A DNA stretch of 64,000 nt from Candidatus Dormiibacterota bacterium (GTDB taxonomy: Bacteria > Chloroflexota > Dormibacteria > Aeolococcales > Aeolococcaceae), in contig PLZA01000065.1 of assembly GCA_003153505.1 (NCBI GenBank), forward strand, positions 29,031 to 93,030. The letters run 5' to 3'. A program made the position numbers and the translations under genes. Position 1 is the first letter of the stretch. Each line of letters starts with the position of its first letter. This document shows, piece after piece, positions 18,585-38,029 of this stretch. The notes under the pieces were generated by a model, which did no database searches, was not told the DNA's origin, and saw nothing but the letters and a program-made list of their open reading frames with translations.

Positions 18585-18615
18585 TCCTGCGAGCGGGCCG
18601 GTGAGACGTTGCCGG

Positions 18616-22098: not shown

Positions 22099-22100
22099 TC

Positions 22101-23343: not shown

Positions 23344-23486
23344 AGCCTGGCGCCAACGCGCGGGCTCGCTGCAGCAGCGTGGCTCGGCAATGATCCGGCG
23401 CCCTGAGCCGTCCGTACCAAGCGGTGACAGGGCGGAGACAAGACGGCCAACCGGATCGCCAACGACCGCCCCAGCGAGGTGTACAC

Positions 23487-23756
23487 ATGGCCAAGGTGAC
23501 ACGGCGGACGTTTCTGTCCACGACCGTGGGGGCAGCGGGCGGAGTGGCGGCAATGGGGCTGATCGCCGGGCCGAGCACGCTCGTCGAGGCGGCGCAGAAC
23601 GTCGCCGCCGCAAGTGACGGACCCATGTCGAGCGAGCCGATGACCGCGTATGTCCGCGATGCGGCGACAGGTGAGATCTCGGTGATGGTCGGCCATCGCG
23701 AGGTGGTCACCAAAGACCCGCAGCTCATCCGGCGTCTGCAGCGCGCAGCGCGCTGA
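23487..23756 (+). CDS. small Tat-signal protein (hypothetical)
   Basis: MAKVTRRTFLSTTVGAAGGVAAMGLIAGPS is a twin-arginine signal peptide. Mature part is about 55 aa. Confidence 0.55.
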   Translation: MAKVTRRTFLSTTVGAAGGVAAMGLIAGPSTLVEAAQNVAAASDGPMSSEPMTAYVRDAATGEISVMVGHREVVTKDPQLIRRLQRAAR

Positions 23757-23799
23757 TCCGCCGAACCCAACAGCATCCACAACCTCACGAGGGGTACAC

Positions 23800-25176
23800 A
23801 TGTCTTCGCATCGTGAAGCGCCGGGAATCTCCAAAGACCCGGTTGCAGACAGCACTGACCTTTACGCGTTCACCAGTCCTGATCATCCAGAGACGGTGAC
23901 GCTGATCGCCAATTACATCCCGCTCGAGGGACCTGACGGCGGACCGAACTTCTACAACTTCGGAGATGACGTTCTCTACGAGATCACCGTCACCAACGGT
24001 GGCACCGTCGCGGACGCGATCACCTACCAGTTCAAGTTCACCACCGAGTACACCGATCCCAACACCTTTCTTTACAACACCGGGCCGATCACGAGCCTCA
24101 CGAGCTCCAGCTGGAACGTGCGTCAGTTCTACTCGGTGACGCGGGTACGGAACGGCCACACCGAAGTGCTCGCCACCAAGCTCGCGTGCCCGCCGGTGAA
24201 CGTCGGCGTTCGTTCGACCCCGAACTACGGCGCACTGGCCCGCGCGGCGGTCCACCGCCTCGACGGTGGGTGGGTCTTCGCAGGCCAGCGGCGCGAGGGC
24301 TTCTACGTCGATCTGGGATCGATCTTCGACCTCGGCGTGCTGCGCCCGTTCCAGAACCTGCATCTCATCCCGCTGCCGGCCGTCGGCGGCGTCGACTCGA
24401 CGAAGCCGCTCAACGTGCACACGATTGCCATCCAGATCCCCAAGACGCACCTCACCAGGCACGGCGAGATGCCAACCGACCCAACCAGCGCGGACTCGGT
24501 CATCGGCGTCTACACCACGGCCAGCAGGCGCAAGTCCACCGTGCTCGAGCACGGCGGTCGCGCCATGGACGTTGGACCCTGGGTCCAGGTCTCGCGCCTG
24601 GGCATGCCGCTGATCAACGAGGTGGTCATCCCCATCGGCAAGAAGGACTTCTGGAACTCGACCAAGCCGAGCAGCGATGCTCAGTTCGTCGCCAACTACG
24701 CACATCCAGAGCTCGCGGGACTCCTGCCCGTGCTCTACCCGGGGGTCTTCCCGAACCTCGCCGCCTACACGCCCGCGCGGGCCGACCTCGAAGCGATCCT
24801 GTTGACCGGGATCCCGTCCGGCGTCATCGCGGGCTTCCAGAACAACACGGGGTCGACACCGGCCGATCTTCTGCGCCTGAACATGGCGATCCCCCCGGCA
24901 TCGTCTCCGAGCATCAACGGTATTCTCGGCGGTGACCTTGCAGGGTTCCCGAACGGGCGCCGTGTGTTCGACGATGTCGCCACCATCGAGATCCGGGCCA
25001 TCGCGGGTGCCACGATCCCCCTGGTCGATTCCACCTTCACGGCAGACGGCGCTGCCGGCCTGGTGAGCGACTTCTCCTCCGGGCAGTTGGGCAGCTCGGT
25101 GCCCGGTAACGGCCGGTACATCGATCACTTCCCATACCTCGGCACGCCGCACAACGGTTTCGACACCCCGAGTTGA
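23800..25176 (+). CDS. DUF4331 family protein
   Basis: Begins MSSHREAPGIS, which matches the DUF4331 family opening. It is 458 aa and has no obvious signal peptide. Confidence 0.7.
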   Translation: MSSHREAPGISKDPVADSTDLYAFTSPDHPETVTLIANYIPLEGPDGGPNFYNFGDDVLYEITVTNGGTVADAITYQFKFTTEYTDPNTFLYNTGPITSLTSSSWNVRQFYSVTRVRNGHTEVLATKLACPPVNVGVRSTPNYGALARAAVHRLDGGWVFAGQRREGFYVDLGSIFDLGVLRPFQNLHLIPLPAVGGVDSTKPLNVHTIAIQIPKTHLTRHGEMPTDPTSADSVIGVYTTASRRKSTVLEHGGRAMDVGPWVQVSRLGMPLINEVVIPIGKKDFWNSTKPSSDAQFVANYAHPELAGLLPVLYPGVFPNLAAYTPARADLEAILLTGIPSGVIAGFQNNTGSTPADLLRLNMAIPPASSPSINGILGGDLAGFPNGRRVFDDVATIEIRAIAGATIPLVDSTFTADGAAGLVSDFSSGQLGSSVPGNGRYIDHFPYLGTPHNGFDTPS

Positions 25177-25487
25177 TCGAGATCGAGTCCGCCGGTCCCG
25201 CCCCCAGCGGGCCGGCGGTCCTCGATATCGGTGAGGGGGCCGGAGCGCTGCTGGTGATCGTGCCCGCAGCGCTCCTCCACACCGAGATCGAGGTCAGCCC
25301 CGACGGACGCCCGGACGCCCGGACCCATACCGGGGTGCACGAGCGCCCGATGGCGGGCGAGCGTCTTGCAATCGCTCTGTTCCCGTCGCTCGACGCCGGT
25401 GGCTGGACCCTCTGGGGAGCCGCGCCGTGCATGACCCGCAGCATCGAGATTCTCGACGGTCAGGTCACCCAGATCGACTGGCGGTGA
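25173..25487 (+). CDS. hypothetical protein, translationally coupled to the DUF4331 gene
   Basis: A TTG start overlaps the DUF4331 stop (TTGA). GC3 is high. Confidence 0.4.
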   Translation: MIEIESAGPAPSGPAVLDIGEGAGALLVIVPAALLHTEIEVSPDGRPDARTHTGVHERPMAGERLAIALFPSLDAGGWTLWGAAPCMTRSIEILDGQVTQIDWR

Positions 25488-25530
25488 CGCTCGCTTGACG
25501 GTCCCCAGGGTTTGCGTCTAACGTAGCCTG

Positions 25531-25559
25531 ATTCTACAGGCGTTCAGTAGAATTTTTTG
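25531..25559 (+). terminator. inverted repeat ATTCTAC-N9-GTAGAAT followed by TTTTTT; candidate intrinsic terminator or operator
   Basis: A perfect 7-bp inverted repeat plus T-run sits in a short AT-richer gap between the ECF/DUF4331 operon and the aminotransferase gene. Confidence 0.3.
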
Positions 25560-25590
25560 CATCCGCACGGGCTGCTGGAGGACCTGGTCG

Positions 25591-26961
25591 ATGGGTTTGA
25601 CCTTGGGTGGCGTCGATCCGGATCGGGTCGCAACACTGACCGCTCGCGAGGAGGCCGAGTTCAGGTCTCGGCGGACGCGTTCGCGCGAGCTCTGGAAGGA
25701 AGCGACCGAGTACATCCCGCGCGGGGTCCCCAGCTCGTTCCAGGACACCCCACCGCAGCCGGTCTTCATCGATTACGGCAAGGGAAGTCGCGTCTGGGAC
25801 GTCGACGGCAACGAGTACGCCGACTTCCACAACGGATTCGGGGTCATGGTCGTCGGTCATGCCCACCCTGCGATCGTCGCGGCGGTGGAGTCCCAGATGC
25901 ATCGCGGATCGCACTTCGCGCAGCCGGTCGCCGAGAACATCGTCGTCGCGCGGGAACTGGCCAGACGGTTCCATCAGCCGCAGTGGCGCTTCACCAACAG
26001 CGGCACCGAGTCGACGCTCGATGCCATCCGGCTCGCGCGCGGGTTCACGGACCGCGAACGGATCATCAAGATCGAGGCCTCGTACCACGGCCACCACGAC
26101 GCGCTGCTCGTCTCCGTGGAGCCGCCGGTCGATGCGATGGGCGATGCCGACTTCCCGAACTCGGTACCCATGACTGGCGGCATCCCCGCGTCGACCGTCG
26201 CGCTGACCTCCGTCGTCGGATTCAACGACCTGGCGTCGCTCGAGCGGGCGTTTGTCGCTCATCCGGGCGAGGTGGCGGCGGTGATCGTCGAGCCGGCGAT
26301 GATGAACATCGGGTTCGTGCTCCCTGACGACGGGTACCTCGCGGGAGTCGTCGAGACCGCCCACCGGCATGGCGCAGTAGCGATCTTCGATGAGGTCAAG
26401 ACGGGCGTGACCATCGCCCCGGGCGGCGCCACCGAGCGCTTCGGCGTCGTCCCGGACATCGTGTGCCTCGCCAAGGCGATCGGCGGCGGTCTGCCGTGCG
26501 GGGCCGTGGGCGGCCGCGCCGACATCATGGCCACGATCACCGACGGCAAGGTCGCCCAGCTCGGCACGTTCAACGGCAACCCGTTGACCACCGCCGCATC
26601 GCGCGCGACACTCCTCGAGGTGCTCACCAATCAGGCGTACTCGCACCTCGACGCGCTCACCGAGGAGTTGAGCGGAGGGCTGCGCGACGTGATGTCCGAG
26701 TACGCGCTCCCGTTCCACGTCGTGTCGATGGGGGCCCGCGGTTGTGTGACCTACCGCGAGCAGCCGGTGCGCAACTATCGCGACTACGCAGCGATGGACA
26801 AGTCCCTCGCCTACGTGTCGTGGCTGTATCAGACCAACCGCGGTGTCCTGATGGCCCCTGGCGCCGAGGAGAACTGGACGCTGTCGGTCCAGCACTCATC
26901 GGACGACGTCAGGCGTTACGTCGCCAACTTCCGTGAGCTGGCGAGGGATCTCAAGGCATGA
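25591..26961 (+). CDS. class-III (omega) aminotransferase, GSA-aminomutase-like
   Basis: The region HGHHDALLVS..GGIP resembles the hemL family, in a catabolic gene context. Confidence 0.85.
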   Translation: MGLTLGGVDPDRVATLTAREEAEFRSRRTRSRELWKEATEYIPRGVPSSFQDTPPQPVFIDYGKGSRVWDVDGNEYADFHNGFGVMVVGHAHPAIVAAVESQMHRGSHFAQPVAENIVVARELARRFHQPQWRFTNSGTESTLDAIRLARGFTDRERIIKIEASYHGHHDALLVSVEPPVDAMGDADFPNSVPMTGGIPASTVALTSVVGFNDLASLERAFVAHPGEVAAVIVEPAMMNIGFVLPDDGYLAGVVETAHRHGAVAIFDEVKTGVTIAPGGATERFGVVPDIVCLAKAIGGGLPCGAVGGRADIMATITDGKVAQLGTFNGNPLTTAASRATLLEVLTNQAYSHLDALTEELSGGLRDVMSEYALPFHVVSMGARGCVTYREQPVRNYRDYAAMDKSLAYVSWLYQTNRGVLMAPGAEENWTLSVQHSSDDVRRYVANFRELARDLKA

Positions 26962-28400
26962 GCACGGTCGCCGTGCGCTCGCTGCGCAACTTCGTCGACG
27001 GCGAGTATCGCGAGGCGACGTCCGATGTGTTCACGCCGCTCATCAACCCGGCGACCGGCGAGGAGTTCGCCCAGGCGCCGGTGTCGAGCGCCGCGGATGT
27101 CGACGCCGCGCTTCGCGCCGCGCAGCGTGCTTTTGGCGGCTGGCGAGACATCACTCCGAGGGAGCGGAGCCTCGCATTGCTGCGCATTGCCGACGCGTTC
27201 GAGAAGCGCTCCGAGGAATTTGTCGCCCTGGAGTGCGAGAACACCGGCAAGCCGATCTCGCTGACCCGCAGCGAGGAGATCCCGCAGCTGATCGACCCGG
27301 TCCGGTTCTTCGCAGGCTGCGCGCGGATTCTCGAAGGCCGGAGCGCGGGCGAATACATGGCGGGACACACCTCGATGATCCGCCGCGAGCCCGTCGGGGT
27401 CTGTGCGCAGGTGACGCCCTGGAACTACCCGATGCTGATGGCCATCTGGAAATGGGCGCCGGCAATCGCTGCAGGCAACACCGTGGTGCTGAAACCATCG
27501 GACACCACTCCCGTGACCACCCTGCTGATGGCCGAGATCATGGCCGAGCATCTGCCTCCCGGTGTGTTCAACGTGGTGTGCGGCGACCCGTCGACCGGCG
27601 CAGCGCTGGTCACGCACCGCATCCCCGCCATGGCCTCGATCACCGGGAGCGTGCGCGCGGGCATGGAAGTGGCGCGTGCCGCGGCCGGCGACCTCAAGCG
27701 CGTCCACCTCGAGCTCGGCGGCAAAGCGCCGGTGATCGTTTTCGACGATTCGGATGTCGCCGCCACCGCCGAAGCCGTTGCCATGGCCGGTTACTTCAAC
27801 GCCGGGCAGGACTGCACCGCTGCGACGCGCGTGATCGCGGCGTCGTCGATTCACGACGAGCTCGTGGCAGCGCTCGCCGAGCAGGCAGCAGCGAACAAGA
27901 CGGGCGCGCCGGACGACGACGAGGTGGCGTTCGGCCCGCTGAACAATGCCAGGCAGCTTGACCGGGTTCGCGAGTTGGTGGGCGGGGCACCCTCCCACGC
28001 TGAAGTCGTCGCCGGTGGGCATCGGATCGGTGACCGCGGGTACTTCCACGAGGCCACCGTGATCGCGGGACTCCGCCAGGACGACGACCTGATCCAGCGC
28101 GAGATCTTCGGGCCGGTGATCACGGTGCAGCGCTTCGACGACGAGGCGAAGGCGCTCGAGTGGGCCAACGGCGTCGAGTACGGTCTCTCCGCGAGCGTCT
28201 GGACGCGAGACCATGGCCGCGCCATGCGCATGGCACGCGCGCTGGACTTCGGCTGCGTCTGGATCAACACGCACATCCCACTGGTGTCCGAGATGCCACA
28301 CGGGGGCTACAAGCATTCGGGGTACGGCAAGGATCTTTCGATGTATGGGTTCGAGGACTACACCCGCATCAAGCACGTGATGAGCAATATCGAAGCCTGA
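26958..28400 (+). CDS. NAD(P)-dependent aldehyde dehydrogenase (aminobutyraldehyde/betaine-aldehyde type)
   Basis: Catalytic Glu ELGGKAP and Cys GQDCTAATR motifs are present. Start is ATGA-coupled to the upstream gene. Confidence 0.9.
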   Translation: MSTVAVRSLRNFVDGEYREATSDVFTPLINPATGEEFAQAPVSSAADVDAALRAAQRAFGGWRDITPRERSLALLRIADAFEKRSEEFVALECENTGKPISLTRSEEIPQLIDPVRFFAGCARILEGRSAGEYMAGHTSMIRREPVGVCAQVTPWNYPMLMAIWKWAPAIAAGNTVVLKPSDTTPVTTLLMAEIMAEHLPPGVFNVVCGDPSTGAALVTHRIPAMASITGSVRAGMEVARAAAGDLKRVHLELGGKAPVIVFDDSDVAATAEAVAMAGYFNAGQDCTAATRVIAASSIHDELVAALAEQAAANKTGAPDDDEVAFGPLNNARQLDRVRELVGGAPSHAEVVAGGHRIGDRGYFHEATVIAGLRQDDDLIQREIFGPVITVQRFDDEAKALEWANGVEYGLSASVWTRDHGRAMRMARALDFGCVWINTHIPLVSEMPHGGYKHSGYGKDLSMYGFEDYTRIKHVMSNIEA

Positions 28401-28442
28401 CGACCCAGGCTCGAGTCAGGAGAACACGGTGAGGAGGAAGAC

Positions 28443-30053
28443 ATGGCGACCCTAGCGGAGCCGATCGTTCACGGGAAACCGGTGGTCTCCCAGCTGAAGA
28501 CCAACACCCTGAACCTCTTCGACGCCACGATCATCGCGACCTCGAGTGTCGCGCCTGCGTACAGCCTGGCCGCGACCATCGCGGTGCTCTTCGTCACCGT
28601 CGGAGCCGCCTCGCCGGCAGCGATCCTCGTCAGCTTCGTGCCCGTCTTCTTCATCGCGCTTGCGTACTTCTACCTGAACCGGATGGATCCGAACTGCGGC
28701 GCCTCATACTCGTGGGTGAGTCGCACGCTGAGCCCGTACATCGGTTGGTTCGGTGGCTGGGTGCAACTCTGCGCCAACATCCTCTTCTGCGCGGCCGCTC
28801 CGCTGATCGCCGGCGCGTACACACTCCAGTTGCTCAACAGCTTCGGATGGATCAGCAGCGACGCTGCCAGCAGCACTGTCTGGATTGCCATTGTTGGCGT
28901 GCTCTGGCTCTTCTTAGTCACCTACATGGTCGTCAAAGGCATCCGCCTCACCGCCAACTTCCAGTGGGTCCTTCTGGCCATTGAGTACCTCGTGGTGGTC
29001 GGATTCTGCGTGGCGGCGTTCATCAAGGTGATCGGCGGGCACCCCGCGGCGCAACCCGTCCATCTCCACTGGTTCAACCCGTTCGCGCTCGGGTCGGTCA
29101 GCGGCCTGGCCGCCGGCGCCGCGCTGGGCGTGTTCTTCTTCTGGGGATGGGACACCGCCGCCAACGTCAACGAGGAGACCAAGGACGCCGAGAGGACACC
29201 GGGTTACGCCGGCCTGATCAGCATGGTCGTGCTGCTGGTGCTCTTCCTGTTCTCAGCGACAGCGATTGACATGGTGACCTCGCCCGCCAACCTCAACAAC
29301 CTCGGGAACAGCGGCGGCGACATCCTCTACTTCTTCGCGCAATCGCTGAGCACCGCGCCGATCACTTACCTCATGATCCTTGCGGTTCTCTCCTCCACGG
29401 TTGCCACGGTGCAGACGACGTTGCTCCCGTCCAGCCGGCTGTCGTTCTCCATGTCCCGTGACGGAGTCTTTCCGGGCATCTTCGGGATCGTGCACAAGAG
29501 CTGGCAGACACCCTGGGTTGGGACTCTCATCACCACGGCACTCTCGACCCTGGTCATTGCGTCGACCTTCATCGGCAGTGTCAATGCTCAGTTCGGCAAT
29601 CTGATCCTCGAGATCGGGGTACTGGTCGCCTTCTATTACGGAATCACCGGAGTCGCGTGTGCGTGGGCTTTCCGCAAGGTGCTGCTCACATCGCCGAAGC
29701 TGTTCTTTCTCGCCGGTCTGTTTCCATTTATCGGCGGCCTCTTCCTCTTCTGGGTCGGCGTCCAAGTGGTCTTCCCAAACTATGAGGTCGACTCAGGGAC
29801 CATCACCACGGCCGCGCCAGTCCTCATAACATTCGCCCTGGGCATCCCCTTGACCATCGTTGCCGCAGTGCTCAACAAGAACGGCTTCTTCCGACAGAAG
29901 ACGGTCTCATACGTCAGCAGGAACGGCAACCTCGTCGCCGCGGTCGCTGGTGGCGGCACCATGGAGCTCACCGGCGGCCCGACGGGCGGTCCGCCGCCGG
30001 CAGCCCCGCCGGTTGCGGACCCGGCGGCTCAGAGCCGATCGAGCAACGAGTAG
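28443..30053 (+). CDS. APC superfamily amino-acid/polyamine permease
   Basis: Twelve predicted TM helices and 536 aa. N-terminal region is typical of APC permeases. Confidence 0.85.
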   Translation: MATLAEPIVHGKPVVSQLKTNTLNLFDATIIATSSVAPAYSLAATIAVLFVTVGAASPAAILVSFVPVFFIALAYFYLNRMDPNCGASYSWVSRTLSPYIGWFGGWVQLCANILFCAAAPLIAGAYTLQLLNSFGWISSDAASSTVWIAIVGVLWLFLVTYMVVKGIRLTANFQWVLLAIEYLVVVGFCVAAFIKVIGGHPAAQPVHLHWFNPFALGSVSGLAAGAALGVFFFWGWDTAANVNEETKDAERTPGYAGLISMVVLLVLFLFSATAIDMVTSPANLNNLGNSGGDILYFFAQSLSTAPITYLMILAVLSSTVATVQTTLLPSSRLSFSMSRDGVFPGIFGIVHKSWQTPWVGTLITTALSTLVIASTFIGSVNAQFGNLILEIGVLVAFYYGITGVACAWAFRKVLLTSPKLFFLAGLFPFIGGLFLFWVGVQVVFPNYEVDSGTITTAAPVLITFALGIPLTIVAAVLNKNGFFRQKTVSYVSRNGNLVAAVAGGGTMELTGGPTGGPPPAAPPVADPAAQSRSSNE

Positions 30054-31342
30054 TAGACGCCGACGAGTGGGAGGAACCAGGGGTGCCCCCGGTACAACGG
30101 CATCCGCGGAAAGCGGAGGTCGGAGAAGGCCGGTCGGGCACCTCTGGCGATCCACTGGGCGGCGAGCGTTCCCATCCAGCTCCCAAGTGCCACGCCGCTG
30201 CCGCAGTAGCCCATCGCGTACGTGACGCCTTCCGATCGCGTGAGGTGGGGCAGCTGGTCGAACGTGAATCCCACATTGCCCGTCCATGCATGGCTGAGCC
30301 GAACGCCCGAAAGCTCCGGATAGATATCGATCATCGCGGCGTAGAGGCGGTCTCGGGCCGTCTGCACGCTCACCGGAGCAAAGCTGGTGCGGCCGCCGAA
30401 AACCAGCCGTCCGTCGGGTGAGAGACGCCAGTAATGGAGGAAGTTGCGCGAGTCGCTCATCATCCGGCGCTGCGGGCTGACGTCTGCCGCGCGCGCGTCG
30501 CCGAGCGGCTCGGTCGCGATGATGTAGCTGCCGATCGGGATGATCCGGCGGCGGGCCCAGGGGGCGGCATCATCCGTGTACCCGTTGGTGGCCACCAGGA
30601 CGTCACCGGCAGCGACGTCGCCACGCGAGGTATGCACCACCACGCCCGGATCGCGCCGCTCGATGGAGGTCACCCGCGTGTGCAGGTGCAGCGCGACGCC
30701 ACCGGACAGCGACAGCCTGGCAAGGCCCGAGAGGTAGCGCGCCGGGTGGATGCTTGCTCCGTTGTCGGTGAGCATGCCGCCGTGGAAGCCGCGGCATGGT
30801 GCCTCGCTTTCGAGGGCCGCGTCCTCGAGCATGACGGTGGACTCGCCGAGGACGTCCCGTCGCTCGGCCTCGTCCTTGCGCAGGCTCTTCATCCGCGATC
30901 TACGGTGCGCGAGATGGAGCCAGCCGGACTGGGTGTACATCGCGTCGGGGGCGGCCGCAGCCGCGGTCCTCGCCACGAACCGGTAGGCCTCGACGCTCGC
31001 GTCGTGCAAGGCACGGCCGGCGGCACCGTGCTTGCGCTCGAGCGTCGCGACGCTGCGCCGGACTCCCGCGTGGATCATTCCGGCGTTCCGGCCGCTCGCG
31101 CCCTCCCCCAGCCCACCGCTGTCGATGACCAGCGTGTGCTTGCCGTGCGAACCAAGCCGGGCTGCCGCCGCAAGCCCCGTAAAGCCTGCGCCGATCACCA
31201 CGGCGTCTGCGCTTGCGGGCAGCGCCGTTTCCGCCACGCTGGGAAACGTTGCGTCGTCCCACCAGAGCGGCGTCTCACGGTAGTCCTCGGCGAGTGGCGC
31301 GGTGCGCTTTCCCGGCGGACCACCCGGCGACCAGATGCTCAT
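30029..31342 (-). CDS. FAD-dependent oxidoreductase (DAO family; gamma-glutamylputrescine oxidase-like)
   Basis: Dinucleotide-binding motif VVIGAGFTGLAAAARL is present. It is convergent with the permease gene and overlaps it by 25 bp. Confidence 0.8.
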   Translation of the reverse strand: MSIWSPGGPPGKRTAPLAEDYRETPLWWDDATFPSVAETALPASADAVVIGAGFTGLAAAARLGSHGKHTLVIDSGGLGEGASGRNAGMIHAGVRRSVATLERKHGAAGRALHDASVEAYRFVARTAAAAAPDAMYTQSGWLHLAHRRSRMKSLRKDEAERRDVLGESTVMLEDAALESEAPCRGFHGGMLTDNGASIHPARYLSGLARLSLSGGVALHLHTRVTSIERRDPGVVVHTSRGDVAAGDVLVATNGYTDDAAPWARRRIIPIGSYIIATEPLGDARAADVSPQRRMMSDSRNFLHYWRLSPDGRLVFGGRTSFAPVSVQTARDRLYAAMIDIYPELSGVRLSHAWTGNVGFTFDQLPHLTRSEGVTYAMGYCGSGVALGSWMGTLAAQWIARGARPAFSDLRFPRMPLYRGHPWFLPLVGVYYSLLDRL

Positions 31343-31423
31343 AATCTACTCAACAGTGACAAGTTCGACTTGGTCGGACAGCGTACCTGCTGCCCACACC
31401 AGGTCGTGTCGAGGAGTGTCCGC

Positions 31424-32200
31424 GTGGACGACATCCGCATCGGCGAGGTCGCACGGCGAGTGGGCGTGAGCCCGTCGACACTTCGCGCGTGGGAGCGCAA
31501 AGGGTTGGTGCGACCGATGCGTGCGGGCGGCCGCCATCGCCGCTACAACTCGGAGGACATCGCTCGCCTGCGTGACGTTCGCGCCCTGTTGACACGTGGT
31601 TTCGCGCCACCCGCGCTGCATTCGCTCATCGCCGGCGAGGCGGTGCCCGAGGATCCGGTTGTCGGCAAGCGCCTTCGGGCGGCACGGACCAAGCGCAGCC
31701 TGTCGCTGCGCAGCGCGGCCGAACGGGCCGGTATCTCGGCGTCGTACCTGAGCCTGGTGGAGCGCGGGCTTGCCGAACCGTCGGTGGCCCTGCTCCAGCG
31801 AGTGGCATCGGCATACGGCGGAACCCTCCTCGAGTTCTTCGGCACCGCGCCGGGGGGGACCGCCGGCCCGAAGCTGGTACGCACCAGCGAGCGACGCAGA
31901 CTGCGCGGCTTCGACCGTGTCGAGATCGAAGACCTGGTCACGTTCCCCAACGCGGTGCTGGAGATCGACATCTTCAGTGTCGCACCGGGCGGCGGTAGCG
32001 GCGGCGCGTATTCCCACGACGGCGAGGAGGCGCTGTACGTCCTCGACGGGGAGCTCGACGTGTGGCTCGACGACGCCGAGCACTACCACATCGAGGCAGG
32101 AGACACGCTGTATTTCCGCAGTGCCCAGCAGCATCGCTGGATGAATCAGTCCAACACCACGACCCGACTCTTCTGGGTCAACACCCCGCCAACGTTCTAG
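31424..32200 (+). CDS. transcriptional regulator with MerR-type HTH, XRE-type HTH and C-terminal cupin domain
   Basis: Three recognisable parts: a MerR-type HTH (IGEVARRVGVSPSTLRAWERKGLV), an XRE-type HTH (LRSAAERAGISASYLSLVERG) and a C-terminal cupin (GDTLYFRSAQQHRW). A GTG start is assumed. Confidence 0.7.
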   Translation: MDDIRIGEVARRVGVSPSTLRAWERKGLVRPMRAGGRHRRYNSEDIARLRDVRALLTRGFAPPALHSLIAGEAVPEDPVVGKRLRAARTKRSLSLRSAAERAGISASYLSLVERGLAEPSVALLQRVASAYGGTLLEFFGTAPGGTAGPKLVRTSERRRLRGFDRVEIEDLVTFPNAVLEIDIFSVAPGGGSGGAYSHDGEEALYVLDGELDVWLDDAEHYHIEAGDTLYFRSAQQHRWMNQSNTTTRLFWVNTPPTF

Positions 32201-32215
32201 GAGGAGCGCAGACCC

Positions 32216-33505
32216 ATGAACACGGTCGAGAAGTACCGCCGCTACGTGAATACCAGCGCGCTCGCCGGGGTGGAGCCGATCACCGTGGAGAGCGCTCGCG
32301 GCGCGACGGTGACCGCAACCGACGGCACTGAATACATCGATCTCTACTCGGGCATCGGTGTGGTCAATACGGGGCATGTGCCGCCGAAGGTCGCGGAAGC
32401 AGCCAAGCGGCAGATGGACAAGGTCGTGCACTCCTGTTCGTATGTCTATCACGTCCCCGTCGTCGCCGACCTCGCGGAACGGCTTGCCGAGATCACGCCG
32501 GGACGCCTCCAGAAGACGTTCTTTGGGAACAGTGGCGCTGAAGCCGTTGAAGGCGCACTTCGGCTGGCACGCGTCTTCACCGGTCGCCGAGAGATCATCG
32601 CCTTGCAGGGTTCCTTCCACGGCCGGACCGCCGGTGCGCTCGCGGTGACCGGGAACGCCCTGCGCAAGCATGGCGGCGGCGCCCAGATCGCGGGGATCGC
32701 CTTTGCTCCAACGCCCAACCCCTATCGCTGCCGGATGTGTTCGGGGTCGTGCTCGCTGGCATGCGCCGACGCCGTCGATGACGTGATCCGGTACGACACC
32801 AGTGATGATGTGGCGGCGTTCATCATCGAGCCGATCATCGGCGAGGGGGGAATCATCCCGCTGCCGGAAGGCTATCTGCAGCGGGTGAAGGACATCCTCG
32901 ACTCGCGAGGCGTCCTGCTGATCGTCGACGAGGTGCAGAGCGGGTTCGGGCGCAGCGGCAGGATGTTCGCGGTGGAGGCTTCCGGCGTCGAGCCAGACAT
33001 CATGACCATGGCCAAGGGGATCGCGAGTGGCTTCCCGCTCGGCGCATTCATCGCCCGCGAGGACGTGGCCGACGCTTTCGAGCCGGGCGACCACATGAGC
33101 ACGTTCGGTGGCAACCCGATCTCGTGTGCAGCAGGCGTTGCCACGATCGACATGCTCGTCGACGAGCGTCTACCGGAGCGGGCTGCGCGGATCGGAGCCA
33201 CCGTCATGGCCCGCCTTGACGCGTTCGCCGTCGAGTCGGACCTGGTCGGAGACGTCCGCGGGAGCGGGCTGATGATCGGCATCGAGCTGGTGCGCGATCG
33301 GGTCACCAAGGAGCCGGCCAGCACCGAGGCGGCGGCCGTCAAGCGGCACTGCCGCGAGCGCGGTGTGCTGATCGGGGTGGGTGGGTCACTTGGCAACGTC
33401 GTCCGTGTTCAACCGCCGCTGGTGATCGGTGAGGAAGAGCTCGACCGCGCGATCGGCGTCATCGAGGAAGCGGTCACGAGTCTCGCCGCACAACCCGTCG
33501 GGTAG
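32216..33505 (+). CDS. class-III aminotransferase (4-aminobutyrate aminotransferase-like)
   Basis: GabT-like motifs are present (YIDLYSGIGVVNTGH, the PLP-Lys region MTMAKGIASGFPLGA). Confidence 0.85.
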   Translation: MNTVEKYRRYVNTSALAGVEPITVESARGATVTATDGTEYIDLYSGIGVVNTGHVPPKVAEAAKRQMDKVVHSCSYVYHVPVVADLAERLAEITPGRLQKTFFGNSGAEAVEGALRLARVFTGRREIIALQGSFHGRTAGALAVTGNALRKHGGGAQIAGIAFAPTPNPYRCRMCSGSCSLACADAVDDVIRYDTSDDVAAFIIEPIIGEGGIIPLPEGYLQRVKDILDSRGVLLIVDEVQSGFGRSGRMFAVEASGVEPDIMTMAKGIASGFPLGAFIAREDVADAFEPGDHMSTFGGNPISCAAGVATIDMLVDERLPERAARIGATVMARLDAFAVESDLVGDVRGSGLMIGIELVRDRVTKEPASTEAAAVKRHCRERGVLIGVGGSLGNVVRVQPPLVIGEEELDRAIGVIEEAVTSLAAQPVG

Positions 33506-33582
33506 CGACCCACCCGCGAAACCGTTTCGAGGTCAGTTGACGACGATCACCGGGGTGCCAGCGTCATGGGCACGCGAGCCCG

Positions 33583-34470
33583 CTACGGTCCCCCTGCGGA
33601 TCGTGAGAGGGGTTGCACGCCGTCGCCGCGGAACGTGGTCTCGATTCCACGAACATCCCCATCCTCATCGGCGAGGACGGTCACGTTGACATAGCCCAAA
33701 TGGGTCAGATCGTCGGCCAGCAGCACCGCTTGATCACCGCCGAGTTCGAGCAGGAGTGCCCCACCGGGTTTGAGGAAGCGTGGGCTGTCACGCAGGACTC
33801 GCCGGAGGACGCGCGTGCCGTCGTCGCCTCCGTCGTAGGAGAGTGTCGTCTCGAATGTGAAGGTGTCACGCTGCAGCAGCGGCAACTCCGGTGTCGGAAC
33901 ATACGGCACCACACCCACGACCACGTCGACGCGATGTTCGAGATCGCGGGGCAGCGGTGCGAAGAGATCGCCGTGATACACCTCGACGCCGTTGGCGGTA
34001 GCGCATGCAACGGCCGCTCGAGCCACGTCGGACGCCAGCACTCGGGCGCGGGGACGATGCGTGGCGAGGACCTTCGCGATCGCACCAGATCCGGTGCACA
34101 GGTCGATCGCACAGCCGTCGCGTGGCAGCCGCTCAACCGCTCTGCTTGCGACTGGTTCGCTGAGCCAGCGCGGGACGTAGACGTCCGGATCGACTCGCAC
34201 ATCGATGCCACAGAACGAGACACGGCCGGTGATCCAGGCGAGCGGCTCCCCGGTGAGACGGCGCCGCACGGCCGCGTCGAGCAGTCCTCCGTCGCCGCCG
34301 GCGAAGGTCAGCAGCTGCTGTGATTCCTCAGCCGCGGCGATGAAACCTTCGCGCGTCAGGAGCGCGCTCAGCGATGCGAGATCGCTCGCGATTGCGATGC
34401 CCTCAGCAGCAGCTGTTGGGAGGACTCGCGATCGCGATGATGCCGCCGATGACGACGAATGCGAGGACAA
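33583..34470 (-). CDS. HemK/PrmC-family SAM-dependent methyltransferase
   Basis: Substrate-binding (VSFCGIDVRVDPDVYVPR) and SAM-binding (IDLCTGSGAIA) motifs are present. Start is uncertain; the N-terminal ~30 aa may be spurious. Confidence 0.7.
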   Translation of the reverse strand: MSSHSSSSAASSRSRVLPTAAAEGIAIASDLASLSALLTREGFIAAAEESQQLLTFAGGDGGLLDAAVRRRLTGEPLAWITGRVSFCGIDVRVDPDVYVPRWLSEPVASRAVERLPRDGCAIDLCTGSGAIAKVLATHRPRARVLASDVARAAVACATANGVEVYHGDLFAPLPRDLEHRVDVVVGVVPYVPTPELPLLQRDTFTFETTLSYDGGDDGTRVLRRVLRDSPRFLKPGGALLLELGGDQAVLLADDLTHLGYVNVTVLADEDGDVRGIETTFRGDGVQPLSRSAGGP

Positions 34471-34641
34471 GCACCAGGAGTGCGGCGATCACCAGCTTCG
34501 TTCTCGTATCCATGCGTCCATGGAATGATGCACAAAGTCATGGCGCACCGGTGACCGGCGCGTGCGGGCTTGGAGCCGCATGCTGGCGAGCGGGCTGGCG
34601 TGACGCGGCGGTGCGATGTGGATCAAGCACCGCGGGGTCCA

Positions 34642-34890
34642 TTAGCCCGACGGACCCACCTCACGGGCTACCGGCCCGGAGCGCGAGCCCCGAGCATACT
34701 GCGGCGGTTCGACCTTTGTGGTGCGCGGTGCGCGGGCAACGCCGGCGCGATCGAGGACGTTCCGGCACCTCAGGCACTTGAACATGGGGGATGGCTGCGG
34801 CCAGCCGTCCCCGTGACGATCGTCACGACGAGGGGGAGTGAAGGTCAGCGGGACCACGCGATCGGCCCCGCACCGCCTGCAAAGGATCAA
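34642..34890 (-). CDS. possible small zinc-ribbon protein (two CxxC pairs)
   Basis: Two CxxC pairs (CRRC, then CLRC 31 aa later). Start is TTG; GC3 is about 70% and there is no clear SD. Confidence 0.25.
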   Translation of the reverse strand: MILCRRCGADRVVPLTFTPPRRDDRHGDGWPQPSPMFKCLRCRNVLDRAGVARAPRTTKVEPPQYARGSRSGPVAREVGPSG

Positions 34891-35620
34891 CGCCCAAAAA
34901 TTGTTCCATGCGGTCGTCCGGCCGTGTGTACGCTACGAGACTAAACGGGGACGGCGATTCCCGCCGGCGTCAGACTGAAGGCCAGCCCGTCCAGTCGCCC
35001 AGCCAGACCGGTGCCTCGGCAGGCGACGTGTCCCTCTACAACGCGGTGGGCTCGATCAACGCACTCCTGGACCTCGCCGGCTGGTTCCAGTAGGGGCGGA
35101 CCGGCGGGCTCCCGACGGATCTTGGCGCCGTCGCCCACCTCGGCCAGTGCCCGCAGCCGCTCGGTCCGATGTTGAACGCAGCTCGCCCGAATTCGGGCTG
35201 AGTTGAGCGCTCTGGGGAGTCCCCAGGCGCTCTTGTAGACGCGAACGACGGCGATGCCGCGAGTGGTTGAACTGGCCAGGTCCGCACGCGTACACTGCGA
35301 CCCTCATGGCGGGGAATCGTGGGCCGAGTTTCGCTCGCTACAACTCCGCAATCGCGGCGACGGCCGCGCTTGCGGCTGCGAAGGCTGATAAGGCCAAGAA
35401 GGAGCACGAGCAGTCTGCGGAGCTTCGCCCTCAGCCGGAGGCGTGGCGCACGCCCGAACACCTTCCTGAGCATCGCCAGGACGTCGCCTGAGGGTCCGGT
35501 ACCCGAACGCCGTGCGCGCACTCGTCGTCCCCGTTCTAGGCCCCCTCGGCTGACAGTATCGACCTCGGCACCATCCGCGGCGCTGGAGGCCATCAACTAT
35601 TGGTAGGAGGGAGGTCACCG

Positions 35621-35800
35621 ATGCCCGAAGACCACGACCCCAGCGCCTGGCAGCCGGTCGCCGTCCCCCAGCGCCGGATCGCTGACATGGATCTTCCGAC
35701 GTTCTTCATCCTGCTGTTCGTGACGATGACGCTCGCCGTCACCGCGGGCGTCTTCCTCTTCTACTACGTGCTGCTGCGGGCCATCGGAGTGAACGCCTGA
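35621..35800 (+). CDS. small membrane protein (59 aa)
   Basis: A strong SD (GGAGGGAGG) lies 6 nt upstream of the ATG. C-terminal hydrophobic helix FFILLFVTMTLAVTAGVFLFYYVLL. Confidence 0.4.
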   Translation: MPEDHDPSAWQPVAVPQRRIADMDLPTFFILLFVTMTLAVTAGVFLFYYVLLRAIGVNA

Positions 35801-36090
35801 TCGTGGCCAGGATCGCGACGCCTGAGCTTGAGTGGTGAGTAACCGACTCCGTTTGTCATCGTTCTACCTTCCGAGCTTGGGGAAATACGGAGACCCCCGG
35901 CGCGGTGCCAGGGGCCTCTTCAGGAAGGGAATGAGTTTCAGCCGCCATCTTGCCTGATCGCCCGTAAGGATCGGCGCGGGACCGAGTAGGATCGTCCGAT
36001 GGGGGCAGCGGTCGCCAGGAACGCGGGGAACGCATGCGTCGCAGCGCCAGCGGTGGTCGTTGCGCCCACGTCTGGCCGCGCGGATAGCGC

Positions 36091-36414
36091 TTACTGAACG
36101 GGCGTGCCTATCAGCTCGCGTGTTTCTCCCGCTGTGAGGTTGAAGAGCTTGTAGGCGCCGTCCTCCTGCGTCTGCCTAACCTCAACCGTGTCCTTATCGA
36201 TCATCTCCGAGACTATGCGCAACCAGGTTGGGCGGCCGTCCAGGCTTCCTCCATGCTTCTCGATTAGCTGCCAAAGGCGACGACGGCTTTCCCCAAACGG
36301 TTCGCGCGGGTGGTCCTTACGAAAGATCTCTCCCAGGTCACGGAAGAACGCGTTTCGGCCGCCGATGTCGTTGGCGTCATACCAGCGTTCGGACACGCTC
36401 GGTTCGAAGGTCAT
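36091..36414 (-). CDS. hypothetical protein (lower GC, no recognisable domain)
   Basis: An AAGAGG SD lies 5 nt upstream of the ATG. GC3 is about 60%, against ~85% in neighbouring genes. Confidence 0.5.
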   Translation of the reverse strand: MTFEPSVSERWYDANDIGGRNAFFRDLGEIFRKDHPREPFGESRRRLWQLIEKHGGSLDGRPTWLRIVSEMIDKDTVEVRQTQEDGAYKLFNLTAGETRELIGTPVQ

Positions 36415-36460
36415 GGAGCCCTCTTAACCCTACTGAGTTCTTTCACTAAGGTCGCGCAGC

Positions 36461-37297
36461 TTACTCAGACTGGCGACCGATCGTCCCACCTTCTGTCGGC
36501 TGATCCACACCACGCTGAGGGGGAGGATATTGCCGCACCGCGCACGCTGCGATGGTGAAGTTGCCTGTAACCATTGTGATGACGCCGCCATTCTCGCCAC
36601 TCTCGGTGAATGTGTAAGAGCCAGCAGCGCCAACGGTCATGGTGAACGGGTTGGACGGAATGTAGTCGGCTACGATGTCGGCCACGACGAGCTTGTATCC
36701 GACAGTCACGCCGCTGAATGTGGCGCTACCTGTGTCACCTGACGTTGAGCACGTCGTCGTCACGGTAACGACTGCGCACGCGCTAATGGTGAAGGGCAGC
36801 AATCCGCTGTTCGGGCCTTCAGGCGCTCCCGAGTAGGTGAATGAGTGGTCGCCAACGGTGTACGGACCACTGGTGAACGGGTTGCGGGTGACGTCCACGA
36901 CGTTACCGTCAAGCGTGATGGTGTCGGGCACGACGGGAGCGTCCTGTCCCGCTCCTGCTGTCCACGTTACGATCAAGCGTCCACCCTCAGTAGTGCCCGG
37001 AACGGCGCATGTGGTTTCCCAGCCTACGCCGGTCTGGCAGGGGCCATAACCGCACGGCCCTTCAGTCGGGCTGGGCGTAGGTGTGGAGGTCGGGGACGGC
37101 GTGGGCGTTGAGCAGTCTCCGTCGCAGCCCGTGGGCGGCGGCGAAGGCGTAGGCGTGTCGGTCGGTGACGGCGCTACTGTCGGAGCGACTGCAAGCGAGA
37201 GCGTTGGTCGCGCAGTAGGCGGCGTAACTGCCGTCGAGCCACAGGCTGCGAGGCCAACGGCGGCGATCGCAGTGCCGGCGATGGTCGCGAATTTCAC
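36461..37297 (-). CDS. putative lipoprotein with PT-rich linker and Cys-rich/beta-rich C-terminal domain
   Basis: A GGAGAGGG SD precedes the GTG start. The N-terminus is a lipoprotein signal with lipobox (VKFATIAGTAIAAVGLAACGS), followed by a TPTPSP linker. Confidence 0.6.
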   Translation of the reverse strand: MKFATIAGTAIAAVGLAACGSTAVTPPTARPTLSLAVAPTVAPSPTDTPTPSPPPTGCDGDCSTPTPSPTSTPTPSPTEGPCGYGPCQTGVGWETTCAVPGTTEGGRLIVTWTAGAGQDAPVVPDTITLDGNVVDVTRNPFTSGPYTVGDHSFTYSGAPEGPNSGLLPFTISACAVVTVTTTCSTSGDTGSATFSGVTVGYKLVVADIVADYIPSNPFTMTVGAAGSYTFTESGENGGVITMVTGNFTIAACAVRQYPPPQRGVDQPTEGGTIGRQSE

Positions 37298-37406
37298 GTC
37301 AGCTGCCCTCTCCACGAACCGACCACAGTCCTGACCGGCGCAGGGACCCTGGCCGCACTTCCTCTGGAACTCATGACGGGTGCCATACCGACCCAACGGG
37401 AACACG

Positions 37407-37667
37407 TCACGCACGGTTACATCCGCGCAAATGCGTCGAACGTGGCCCTCGCGTGTAGGCTCCGAGCCAGGGGTGATCGACGAGACTCCTGACGATCTGA
37501 CGGATACACTCGCGCGTCAGTTCAAGGGCCTCGCTGACGCTCGCCAGGTTCTCGCCGGCCTCATAGCGGTGGAGGATCTCAGCGTCTCGGCGCTCGATTA
37601 GGGGGAGCTGAGCGGTGGAGTGGCTTCCGGGCATGCCCATGCCTGCCACCCACCCCGTCGCGGGCAA
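37407..37667 (-). CDS. small sigma-70 region-4-like HTH protein
   Basis: RRDAEILHRYEAGENLASVSEALELTRECIRQI resembles a sigma-factor region 4 HTH. High GC3; start codon uncertain. Confidence 0.45.
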   Translation of the reverse strand: MPATGWVAGMGMPGSHSTAQLPLIERRDAEILHRYEAGENLASVSEALELTRECIRQIVRSLVDHPWLGAYTRGPRSTHLRGCNRA

Positions 37668-37944
37668 TCAAGCCGTACAGAAGCCGACACATCACGGCTT
37701 GAACGGACGATCGCAGCCGGGAGATTGGTGCCTCCCGACGCCATCGTCGACCTCGATCGCGACGTCCACTCGACGAGCCGCCGCGTGTCGGTCCTGAGCC
37801 TGTGGATGCGGCGCTGTAGCCGGGCCTCTTCGAGCTTTTGGGGCGACGGTGACGCCTCGCGATCGGGAACGCGGCAGGCCGCGAAGCTCGCTCCACGCCT
37901 TACGACCACACGCCGATGCTACGCGCGTGACTGTCAAACCACCG

Positions 37945-38029
37945 TACCGGGCCCGGGAATTGAACCCGGACGGGGGTTTCCCCCCAGCGGTTTTTAAGAC
38001 CGCCGCGTCTGCCATTTCGCCAGCCCGGC
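37945..38029 (-). tRNA. tRNA-Leu(UAA), type II with long variable arm
   Basis: Hand-folded cloverleaf:
- 7-bp acceptor stem GCCGGGC / GCCCGGT with a G1-U72 pair (as in E. coli tRNA-Leu(UAA)) and discriminator A.
- 3-bp D stem.
- Anticodon stem GCGGT/ACCGC around loop CTTAAAA.
- Variable arm GGGGG-GAAA-CCCCC.
- T arm CCGGG-TTCAATT-CCCGG.
CCA is not encoded. Confidence 0.85.

What the first reader, a model, noticed from the sequence alone, without database searches (positions are those of the whole stretch)
36091..38029. Lower-GC three-gene module (sigma-r4-like HTH, PT-linker lipoprotein, unknown 107-aa protein) downstream of tRNA-Leu(UAA)
Three minus-strand genes sit immediately on the 3' side of a hand-folded tRNA-Leu(UAA). 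They encode a small sigma-70 region-4-like HTH protein, a lipoprotein with a Cys-rich/beta-rich domain, and a 107-aa protein with no recognisable motif.

Their composition differs from the surrounding core genes. The 107-aa gene has GC3 of about 60%, against ~85% elsewhere. The genes have canonical AG-rich SD sequences, which are less obvious elsewhere in the window.

tRNA 3' ends are classic integration sites. I could find no integrase and no direct repeat of the tRNA 3' end. It looks like a decayed or streamlined island of unknown function, possibly a small regulatory/envelope module.
Basis: partly seen in the sequence, partly recalled or inferred. Interest (0 to 1): 0.55.

Follow-up and report, generated by a model that had tools for sequence, protein, structure and literature searches.

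The report
Patchwork accessory genes beside tRNA-Leu
The three small genes next to a leucine tRNA in this uncultured soil bacterium (Dormibacterota) are not one functional module; they are a patchwork of independently acquired or decaying pieces at a spot where foreign DNA tends to insert, which is a common pattern in bacterial genomes.

Summary
The tRNA-Leu(UAA) is real (ARAGORN; Rfam 52.9 bits), and three minus-strand ORFs do lie on its 3' side. The compositional signal is real but overstated: GC3 is 0.68-0.75, against 0.81 +/- 0.04 for window genes.

The pieces have separate histories.
- The "HTH" ORF is an orphan with only sub-threshold family hits. It sits in a ~415-443-nt strain-specific insert. 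It is frameshifted in L002 and, by tblastn pattern, in L005, L006, L009 and L103. Most of it is absent in L003, L004, L007 and L008.
- The lipoprotein is a real Dormibacterota-only gene: lipobox, PT linker and two FN3/PKD-like beta-sandwiches, with a conserved ECF-sigma-like promoter motif of its own.
- p107 is a real, tiny family (15 representative clusters among 1.84 billion proteins) with no fold match. It behaves as a ~0.4-kb self-contained cassette. It occurs in at least five unrelated contexts, and its synonymous divergence is 4-9 times lower than that of linked core genes.

Synteny with relatives breaks at the tRNA 3' end. One sister species lacks lipoprotein and HTH, and another carries a split integrase at that site. 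A distant relative continues straight into housekeeping genes that lie 15.9 kb away here.

The window has no integrase and no att repeat. This is an ordinary tRNA-flanking hotspot, not a three-gene module.

The parts
37944..38029 (-). tRNA-Leu(UAA). Its 3' end (37944/5) is the synteny breakpoint between species.
   Evidence: ARAGORN; Rfam RF00005 at 52.9 bits; alignment of five loci shows homology ending at the tRNA end.
37485..37927 (-). Strain-specific insert. 443 nt by blastn, of which ~415 nt is unique. It starts ~34 nt beyond the tRNA 3' end and carries the N-terminal two thirds of the HTH ORF. In L003, L004, L007 and L008 about 72 nt stand in its place, of which ~44 nt are unique to those strains.
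   Evidence: blastn blocks; alignment. The short L003 variant matches the region upstream of the L011 lipoprotein paralogue, so the insert looks derived. It is not repeated elsewhere in the window or in the fetched loci.
37407..37667 (-). 'HTH' ORF (86 aa). An orphan with an HTH-like stretch at residues ~22-60, probably a decaying fragment rather than a maintained gene.
   Evidence: Sub-threshold hits only: Sigma70_r4 E = 0.003, Mor 0.015, CD3324 0.0011, PADLOC HTH 0.0011. The only homologue among 5.8 billion proteins is its own 100%-identical cluster. A 1-nt deletion in the ORF is seen in L002; L005, L006, L009 and L103 give the same split tblastn pattern. Only residues 62-86 are retained in L003, L004, L007 and L008.
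37385..37445 (-). Conserved ~60-nt element upstream of lipoprotein-family genes. It contains TGTAAC-N17-CGTT (37395-37421), an ECF-sigma-type promoter-like motif, and overlaps the C-terminal codons of the HTH ORF.
   Evidence: Aligned across the window, L011, L018 and L019. Occurs once in the window against 0.07 expected. Also present upstream of paralogues in L104 and L112. Reading it as an ECF promoter is inference from general knowledge of ECF promoters (AAC at -35, CGT at -10).
36461..37297 (-). Lipoprotein (278 aa):
- signal peptide and lipobox Cys19
- PT/PS linker (about 37034-37237)
- beta-sandwich domain 1 (about 36785-37033)
- beta-sandwich domain 2 (about 36551-36766)
- 26-aa tail that runs into the p107 upstream block
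36091..36479 (-). p107 cassette: the ORF 36091-36414 (107 aa, acidic, no signal peptide) plus ~65 nt of conserved upstream sequence.
   Evidence: 25 homologous clusters and 15 representative clusters among 1.84 billion proteins. dN/dS 0.17-0.42. An 89.6%-identity block against L021, with flanks at 74-84%. dS 0.12-0.24 against 0.56-1.07 for linked genes. Flank classes.
34732..36090 (.). Second lineage-specific segment on the other side of p107, absent in L021. It contains a small membrane-protein ORF (35600-35800, +) and a 151-nt indel site at ~36058-36066.
   Evidence: blastn against L021. The TM66/p59 block is inverted and lies upstream of p107 in L114 and L115. Indel.
22045..37943 (.). The whole 15.9-kb interval between the tRNA 3' end and the genes that directly follow this tRNA in L023. 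It is composite: ECF sigma factor, Rieske protein, DUF4331, an amine/amino-acid catabolic cluster, a HemK-family methyltransferase, then the variable patch.
   Evidence: L023 gene identities. Their homologues in the window lie at 16961-22044 in the same order and on the same strand. Pfam content of the interval.

Best explanation
The 3' flank of tRNA-Leu(UAA) in this Dormibacterota lineage is a recombination and integration hotspot.

Shown:
1. Synteny with other species breaks at the tRNA 3' end, and a sister species has a tyrosine integrase there.
2. The piece nearest the tRNA is a ~415-443-nt strain-specific insert. Its HTH-like ORF is frameshifted or missing in near-identical strains.
3. 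The next piece is a lipoprotein cassette with its own conserved upstream element. It is absent from the sister species L021.
4. p107 is a ~0.4-kb self-contained unit found in several unrelated contexts. Its synonymous divergence is 4-9 times lower than that of the genes linked to it.

Inferred:
- The pieces arrived through successive insertion or recombination events, with the newer material nearer the tRNA. The mobilising functions (integrase, att sites) were later lost.
- The lipoprotein is transcribed from an ECF-sigma-type promoter (TGTAAC-N17-CGTT), lipid-anchored at Cys19, and displays two Ig-like beta-sandwich domains on a Pro/Thr-rich stalk. It would be a variable cell-surface binding protein.
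- p107 is a cytoplasmic, acidic alpha/beta protein, expressed from its own short upstream region and exchanged between related species. Its biochemical role is not established.
For: - tRNA confirmed.
- Breakpoint at the tRNA end.
- L070 has Phage_int_SAM_3 plus Phage_integrase, split into two ORFs, next to the tRNA.
- L021 has tRNA-Leu, then ~130 nt, then p107, then the MTase, and lacks window 36480-37939 and 34732-36096.
- L023 has the tRNA followed by MscL, a hydrolase, MurI and polyprenyl synthase. Window homologues of the hydrolase, MurI, polyprenyl synthase and EEP genes lie 15.9 kb from the tRNA; MscL has no homologue in the window.
- HTH ORF decay between strains and its orphan status.
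- Lipoprotein family, architecture and fold, and the conserved promoter-like motif.
- p107 contexts, purifying selection and dS discordance with binomial P ~1e-7.
- Lower GC3, z = -1.6 to -3.1.
Against: - The window has no integrase, no att repeat and no other mobility gene, so integrase-mediated origin of these particular pieces is inferred, not shown.
- Gain in the window lineage versus loss in L021 cannot be polarised with the available genomes.
- The strain-level insert begins 34 nt from the tRNA end, not at it.
- p107 lies on the 5' side of the nearest tRNA in L016/L017, and on the far side from the integrase in L013 and L117. There is therefore no uniform tRNA-3' geometry.
- All comparison sequences are MAG or metagenome contigs.
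- Neither protein is found on known phages, plasmids or IMG/VR contigs.
- The ECF-promoter reading rests on a pattern match only.
Confidence: 0.62

Rival explanations
1. The genes are native, vertically inherited and lineage-specific. The lipoprotein and p107 are ordinary Dormibacterota genes whose lower GC3 reflects low expression or relaxed selection. Differences between genomes come only from deletions and rearrangements near a tRNA, with no horizontal transfer.
For: - Both families are restricted to Dormibacterota-like sequences.
- p107 orthologues have GC3 of 0.72-0.79 in every context, so the low GC3 is a property of the gene.
- p107 is syntenic between the MTase and tRNA-Leu in both the window and L021.
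- No integrase or att repeat in the window, and no phage or plasmid copies.
- Lipoprotein-p107 linkage recurs in forms that could derive from one ancestral arrangement of lipoprotein, RibD_C, p107 and a second lipoprotein (L018, L113, L011).
Against: - p107's dS is 4-9 times lower than that of every linked gene in three comparisons. Strict vertical descent does not predict this.
- The non-coding 60 nt upstream of p107 is also far better conserved than expected at dS ~0.8.
- p107's flanks fall into at least five unrelated classes at only 81-90% protein identity.
- An integrase occupies the same tRNA site in L070.
Confidence: 0.22
2. One reading: a functional three-gene regulatory/envelope operon, in which the HTH protein regulates the lipoprotein and p107.
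For: - The three ORFs are co-directional and closely spaced.
- The HTH stretch gives weak but consistent hits in four libraries.
- Lipoprotein-p107 adjacency recurs.
Against: - The HTH ORF has no homologue outside its own strain cluster. It is frameshifted or two-thirds deleted in strains whose lipoprotein and p107 remain 99-100% identical.
- Its conserved C-terminal codons coincide with the lipoprotein's promoter-like element.
- Lipoprotein and p107 occur in either order, separated by another gene, or alone.
- p107 keeps its own upstream block where the lipoprotein is absent.
Confidence: 0.05
3. The low synonymous divergence of p107 reflects nucleotide-level constraint, such as an overlapping RNA element or antisense gene, rather than recent exchange. 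p107 would then be an old resident of the locus.
For: - dN between the window and L021 (0.059) is similar to that of the flanking genes, while only dS is low.
- Differences between the window and L107 are spread evenly over codon positions, 8/5/8.
- An antisense frame is open in several homologues.
Against: - dS rises to 0.36-0.58 against L011, L018 and L016 and saturates at 1.79 against L013.
- The antisense frame carries stops in the window, L105, L112, L114 and L013.
- No Rfam family matches the region.
- Third positions dominate the differences in the other pairs.
Confidence: 0.1

Closest known systems
tRNA-linked genomic islands and islets: integrase-mediated insertion at the 3' end of a tRNA gene, followed by decay
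   Same: - Adjacent to a tRNA 3' end.
- Synteny breakpoint at the tRNA end.
- Presence/absence variation between species and between strains.
- Lower GC3.
- An integrase at the same tRNA in a sister species (L070).
- Layered content with the most variable piece nearest the tRNA.
   Different: - No integrase, excisionase or att repeat in this genome.
- The pieces are very small (0.4-1.5 kb) and carry only orphan genes.
- One piece (p107) is shared at the locus with a sister species.
- The strain-level insert starts 34 nt from the tRNA end.
Monoderm-type surface lipoproteins with Pro/Thr-rich stalks and Ig-like (FN3/PKD) domains
   Same: - Signal peptide with a lipobox Cys.
- A low-complexity PT/PS linker.
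   Different: - No Pfam, NCBIfam or PHROG family match.
- Each domain is bracketed by a Cys pair (TTC...FTIxAC).
- The family is confined to Dormibacterota and has a variable number of domains.
- The ligand is unknown.
ECF-sigma-dependent promoters (AAC-type -35 and CGT-type -10 elements, e.g. the Bacillus sigmaX/sigmaW class), known to me from the general literature
   Same: TGTAAC-N17-CGTT lies ~20 nt upstream of the start codon of lipoprotein paralogues in several genomes. Envelope proteins are typical ECF regulon members.
   Different: - This is a pattern match only, with no mapped transcription start.
- The cognate sigma factor is not identified. The ECF sigma gene at 22101-22682 has no such motif upstream.
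- In the window the motif lies ~100 nt from the start codon.

Membership tests
tRNA-linked integrative genomic island | Located directly at the 3' end of a tRNA gene | tested here: met
   tRNA-Leu(UAA) at 37944-38029. Inter-species homology ends within a few nt of the tRNA end.
tRNA-linked integrative genomic island | Encodes a site-specific recombinase (integrase) | tested here: not met
   tblastn of three tyrosine-integrase proteins against the whole window gave no hit. Pfam found nothing on ORFs in 34.6-39.1 kb. An integrase is present at the same site in L070.
tRNA-linked integrative genomic island | Flanked by a direct repeat of the tRNA 3' end (attL/attR) | tested here: not met
   k-mer searches with mismatches and blastn-short over the window found only chance-level 9-11-mers.
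tRNA-linked integrative genomic island | Present or absent in related genomes (empty site exists) | tested here: met
   L021 lacks the lipoprotein and HTH. L070 has different content. L023 continues directly into housekeeping genes. Strains differ in the 443-nt insert.
tRNA-linked integrative genomic island | Composition differs from the host genome | tested here: met
   GC3 of 0.685-0.75 against 0.81 +/- 0.04, z = -1.6 to -3.1. The difference is modest, and p107 orthologues show it in every genome.
Bacterial lipoprotein (Lgt/LspA substrate) | N-terminal signal peptide ending in a lipobox [LVI][ASTVI][GAS]C | tested here: met
   The sequence VKFATIAGTAIAAVGLAAC-G carries L16-A17-A18-C19. The lipobox is kept in nearly all aligned homologues; two have S or T in place of a lipobox residue. 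Actual lipidation is not testable here.
Sigma-70 region 4 (PF04545) / Mor (PF08765) HTH proteins | Score at or above the family's curated threshold | tested here: not met
   17.6 bits against a 24.1 cut-off, and 15.7 against 24.9. NCBIfam CD3324 scored 19 against 65.
FN3/PKD-type Ig-like beta-sandwich fold | Structural similarity of each domain to solved FN3/PKD domains | tested here: met
Conserved operon (HTH-lipoprotein-p107) | Gene order and content conserved across genomes that carry the genes | tested here: not met
   The HTH ORF is absent outside one strain cluster. Lipoprotein and p107 occur in different orders or apart.
ECF-sigma-dependent promoter | AAC-type -35 and CGT-type -10 elements at 16-17 nt spacing, conserved upstream of orthologues, with a transcription start just downstream | tested here: inconclusive
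   Pattern and conservation are met. Transcription start and sigma-factor dependence are not testable with these tools.
Known anti-phage defence systems (PADLOC) | Significant match of any component to a defence-system model | tested here: not met
   The only hit was a weak HTH match, E = 0.0011 at 16.5 bits.

The most novel reading that the evidence does not exclude
p107 may be a self-contained ~0.4-kb gene cassette (ORF plus ~60 nt upstream and ~40 nt downstream) that is exchanged horizontally among Dormibacterota species without any recognisable mobility gene. It lands repeatedly near tRNA genes and next to lipoprotein genes driven by an ECF-like promoter. That would make it either a new kind of minimal mobile cassette or a new functional pairing between a small cytoplasmic protein with no detectable fold relative and a variable surface lipoprotein family.
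Probability: 0.15. Interest if true: 0.6.

Novelty: new member of a known kind. Interest (0 to 1): 0.33.

Why it matters
Dormibacterota are abundant in soils and peat and, to my knowledge, have no cultured representative, so almost nothing is known about their mobile DNA or cell surface.

This locus shows that tRNA-Leu(UAA) serves as an integration and recombination hotspot in the phylum. It also defines two lineage-restricted protein families: a PT-stalk lipoprotein with tandem Ig-like domains, and a 107-aa protein with no detectable fold relative. It suggests a conserved ECF-type promoter motif that could be tested in metatranscriptomes.

The low synonymous divergence of p107 is a concrete, testable indication of gene flow between Dormibacterota species. 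Otherwise the finding is an ordinary example of a decayed tRNA-flanking variable region.

Tried and rejected
- Curated-family assignment for the three proteins (Pfam, NCBIfam, PHROGs, PADLOC) gave only sub-threshold HTH hits.
- Phage, plasmid and IMG/VR carriage of p107 and the lipoprotein: no hits.
- The 443-nt HTH insert is not a repeated element (MITE): there are no other copies in the window or in 125 loci.
- A conserved antisense ORF as the cause of p107's low dS was rejected, because stops are present in several homologues.
- A sigma-70 promoter and terminator scan gave no promoter-like site, and the terminator-like sites were at roughly chance level.
- A literature search on Dormibacterota with lipoprotein, integrase, island or envelope terms returned nothing relevant.
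- The ECF sigma gene at 22101-22682 was considered as regulator of the lipoprotein. No shared motif was found, so this is left as speculation.
- A tendency of p107 to lie near tRNA genes is only suggestive: three of about nine context classes have a tRNA within 2 kb, with no consistent geometry.
Full report
**1. What is there**

The window has 67.7% G+C. By its closest relatives it comes from a Candidatus Dormibacterota genome. ARAGORN finds tRNA-Leu(UAA) at 37944-38029 on the minus strand.

Three minus-strand ORFs lie downstream of its 3' end:
- an 86-aa "HTH" ORF at 37407-37667
- a lipoprotein gene at 36461-37297, with a GTG start reading VKFATI...
- a 107-aa ORF, here called p107, at 36091-36414

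**2. Composition and Shine-Dalgarno claims**

Fifty long ORFs with a coding-type GC pattern have GC3 of 0.81 +/- 0.04. The three ORFs have:

| ORF | GC3 | z |
|---|---|---|
| p107 | 0.72 | -2.2 |
| lipoprotein | 0.685 | -3.1 |
| HTH | 0.75 | -1.6 |

p107 orthologues in five other genomes also have GC3 of 0.72-0.79, so the lower value is a property of the gene family.

The SD-like motifs (GAGG and GGAGAGGG) are not distinctive. Neighbouring core genes carry AGGAGG or GGAGG.

**3. The HTH ORF is not a maintained gene**

- Its family hits are all below threshold: Sigma70_r4 at 17.6 bits against 24.1, Mor, CD3324 and a PADLOC HTH model.
- Its only homologue among 5.8 billion proteins is its own 100%-identical cluster.
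- Ten contigs from 98-100%-identical strains (L001-L010) show its state. The ORF is intact in L001 and L010.
- L002 has a 1-nt deletion inside the ORF. L005, L006, L009 and L103 show the same split tblastn pattern, so they are inferred to carry it too.
- In L003, L004, L007 and L008, window 37485-37927 (443 nt) is replaced by about 72 nt, which removes residues 1-61.
- The short L003 variant matches the sequence upstream of a lipoprotein paralogue in L011. The window-type insert is therefore probably the derived state.
- The insert is not repeated elsewhere.
- The only part of the ORF kept in all strains (residues 62-86) coincides with a conserved non-coding element of the lipoprotein gene (section 4).

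**4. The lipoprotein**

The family has 62 homologous clusters, none with a Pfam domain. The sources that carry a name are Dormibacterota.

Its architecture:
- a signal peptide with lipobox L-A-A-C19
- a linker that is 67% P+T+S
- one or two Cys-bracketed domains (TTC...FTIxAC)

A ~60-nt element containing TGTAAC-N17-CGTT is conserved upstream of family members in the window, L011, L018, L019, L104 and L112. It occurs once in the window, against 0.07 expected by chance. From general knowledge of ECF-sigma promoters (AAC at -35, CGT at -10) I read it as an ECF-type promoter. This is inference only.

**5. p107**

p107 is acidic (pI 5.4) and has no signal peptide. The family is tiny: 25 clusters at 90% identity and 15 representative clusters among 1.84 billion proteins.

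The AlphaFold model (pLDDT 76; order beta-alpha-alpha-beta-beta-beta-alpha) has no significant neighbour:
- BFVD: no match at E <= 0.001
- PDB sequence profile: no match
- afdb50 could not be searched

dN/dS is 0.17-0.42, so it is a real gene.

Its neighbourhood differs from genome to genome:

| Loci | Context of p107 |
|---|---|
| window type | two-domain lipoprotein immediately upstream |
| L011/L012, L116-L119 (and L112, L113, where only the first 24-26 residues match) | one-domain lipoprotein paralogue immediately downstream |
| L018 | lipoprotein, RibD_C on the opposite strand, p107, rhodanese |
| L016/L017 | 130 nt from tRNA-Pro, in divergent orientation |
| L013-L015 | next to two tRNA-Ser genes, with an integrase/TrwC element beyond them |
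| L021, L107 | next to the MTase |
| L114, L115 | TM66/p59 block inverted and upstream |

Homology covers only the ORF plus about 30-60 nt upstream and 35-45 nt downstream. Beyond that the flanks fall into at least five unrelated classes.

**6. A discordant molecular clock**

| Comparison | p107 dS | Linked genes dS |
|---|---|---|
| window vs L021 | 0.154 | GSA aminotransferase 0.84, HExxH protein 0.64, LuxR regulator 0.76, MTase 0.88 |
| window vs L107 | 0.119 | MTase 1.07 |
| window vs L112 | 0.243 | MTase 1.07 |

- With about 10 synonymous differences over 72 sites, against a background pS of at least 0.43, the binomial P is about 1e-7.
- dS saturates against distant homologues, reaching 1.79 against L013.
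- No antisense ORF is conserved.
- The non-coding upstream 60 nt is also unusually well conserved.

The simplest reading is that the p107 block has been exchanged between these lineages more recently than their core genomes diverged. Nucleotide-level constraint is a weaker alternative.

**7. Empty-site test**

A scan of species-representative genomes with the flanking aminotransferase gave three informative loci.

- L021 (88% identity): the order is MTase, p107, tRNA-Leu, HExxH protein, tRNA-Cys, aminotransferase. Window 36480-37939 (lipoprotein and HTH) and 34732-36096 are missing.
- L070 (87% identity, on a 1.3-Mb contig): the tRNA, HExxH protein and aminotransferase are conserved. Nothing beyond the tRNA 3' end is homologous to the window. 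A tyrosine recombinase (Phage_int_SAM_3 plus Phage_integrase, split into two ORFs) abuts the tRNA.
- L023 (62% identity): the tRNA is followed directly by MscL, a hydrolase, glutamate racemase (MurI), polyprenyl synthase and an EEP-family protein.

Homologues of the last four L023 genes lie in the window at 16961-22044, in the same order and on the same strand. The interval 22045-37943 (15.9 kb) is therefore lineage-specific relative to L023. Its content:
- an ECF sigma factor, a Rieske protein and DUF4331
- an amine/amino-acid catabolic cluster of native composition
- a HemK-family methyltransferase
- the low-GC3 patch next to the tRNA

No integrase homologue and no att repeat exist anywhere in the window.

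**8. Interpretation**

The flank of tRNA-Leu(UAA) is a long-standing synteny breakpoint and insertion hotspot.
- a decaying strain-specific insert (the HTH ORF)
- a lipoprotein cassette with its own promoter-like element
- the p107 cassette

The order, from most variable nearest the tRNA to least variable, fits serial insertion at or near the tRNA end followed by decay. However, gain and loss cannot be polarised with the present genomes, and the mobilising machinery is absent here.

The lipoprotein is most likely a lipid-anchored surface protein that displays two Ig-like domains on a PT stalk. The role of p107 is unknown. Its recurrent linkage with lipoprotein paralogues may be functional, or it may be inherited from one ancestral arrangement.

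**9. Verdict**

One point remains open: the low-dS, cassette-like behaviour of p107. Interest is modest.

Noticed in passing
window 38119-38667 (+): A 182-aa protein with an HEWEHH (HExxH-like) motif lies next to tRNA-Leu(UAA) in every Dormibacterota locus examined (71-88% identity in L021, L070 and L023). It has no Pfam, NCBIfam, PHROG or PADLOC match. It may be an uncharacterised conserved metalloprotease-like family.
   Followed up: partly
window 36058-36066; L002 10357-10508: Strains L002, L005 and L009 carry a ~151-nt indel just downstream of the p107 stop codon. It is flanked by the short repeat GCAACG(A/C)C, so it is either a microhomology deletion or a small insertion.
   Followed up: partly
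L003 8843-8865 (equivalent to window ~37930): Immediately after the tRNA-Leu 3' end, L003 has an 11-nt tandem duplication (TGACAGTCAAG / TGACAGTCACG) that the window lacks. It may be a recombination scar.
   Followed up: no
L070 4466-9951: The sister species has a ~5.4-kb insertion between the p70 ORF and tRNA-Cys. It encodes a 1139-aa adenylate/guanylate cyclase-AAA-TPR protein, an aldo-keto reductase and a PT-rich secreted protein. In L023 the tRNA-Cys is inverted. The tRNA-Cys flank is therefore also variable.
   Followed up: partly
window 22101-25176: An ECF sigma factor (Sigma70_r2 plus r4_2), an overlapping Rieske-domain protein (possibly an anti-sigma factor) and a DUF4331 protein sit at the far edge of the 15.9-kb interval that is lineage-specific relative to L023.
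   Followed up: partly
L106 220-510 and 1272-1589: One metagenome contig carries two p107 paralogues about 760 nt apart, at 35% and 94% identity to the window protein. The family can therefore duplicate or accumulate locally.
   Followed up: no
proteins P0032, P0052, P0059 (lipoprotein homologues): Some lipoprotein family members end in [MV]PGTGARLG or VPVTGAGL, which resembles the start of an LPXTG-type sortase signal. That would give a protein with both a lipobox and a C-terminal sorting signal. The sequences may be truncated.
   Followed up: no
window 35600-35800 (+); L114 5077-5268; L115 35-229: A 66-aa single-pass membrane-protein ORF (GC3 0.87, AGGAGG SD) is 92-95% identical in L114 and L115, with dS of only 0.08-0.11. 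There the block is inverted and lies upstream of p107. It may be another small cassette that has moved or been exchanged.
   Followed up: partly
L013 12049-20243; L014: An integrative mobilisable element sits at the 3' end of tRNA-Ser(CGA). It carries a tyrosine integrase, Gp49/HTH toxin-antitoxin-like genes and a TrwC relaxase, about 2 kb from a divergent p107 homologue (61% identity).
   Followed up: no
window 34642-34890 (-): An 82-aa ORF with two CxxC pairs (zinc-ribbon-like) lies between the methyltransferase and the variable patch. It is 97-100% conserved among strains but only weakly conserved in L021 and L112.
   Followed up: no
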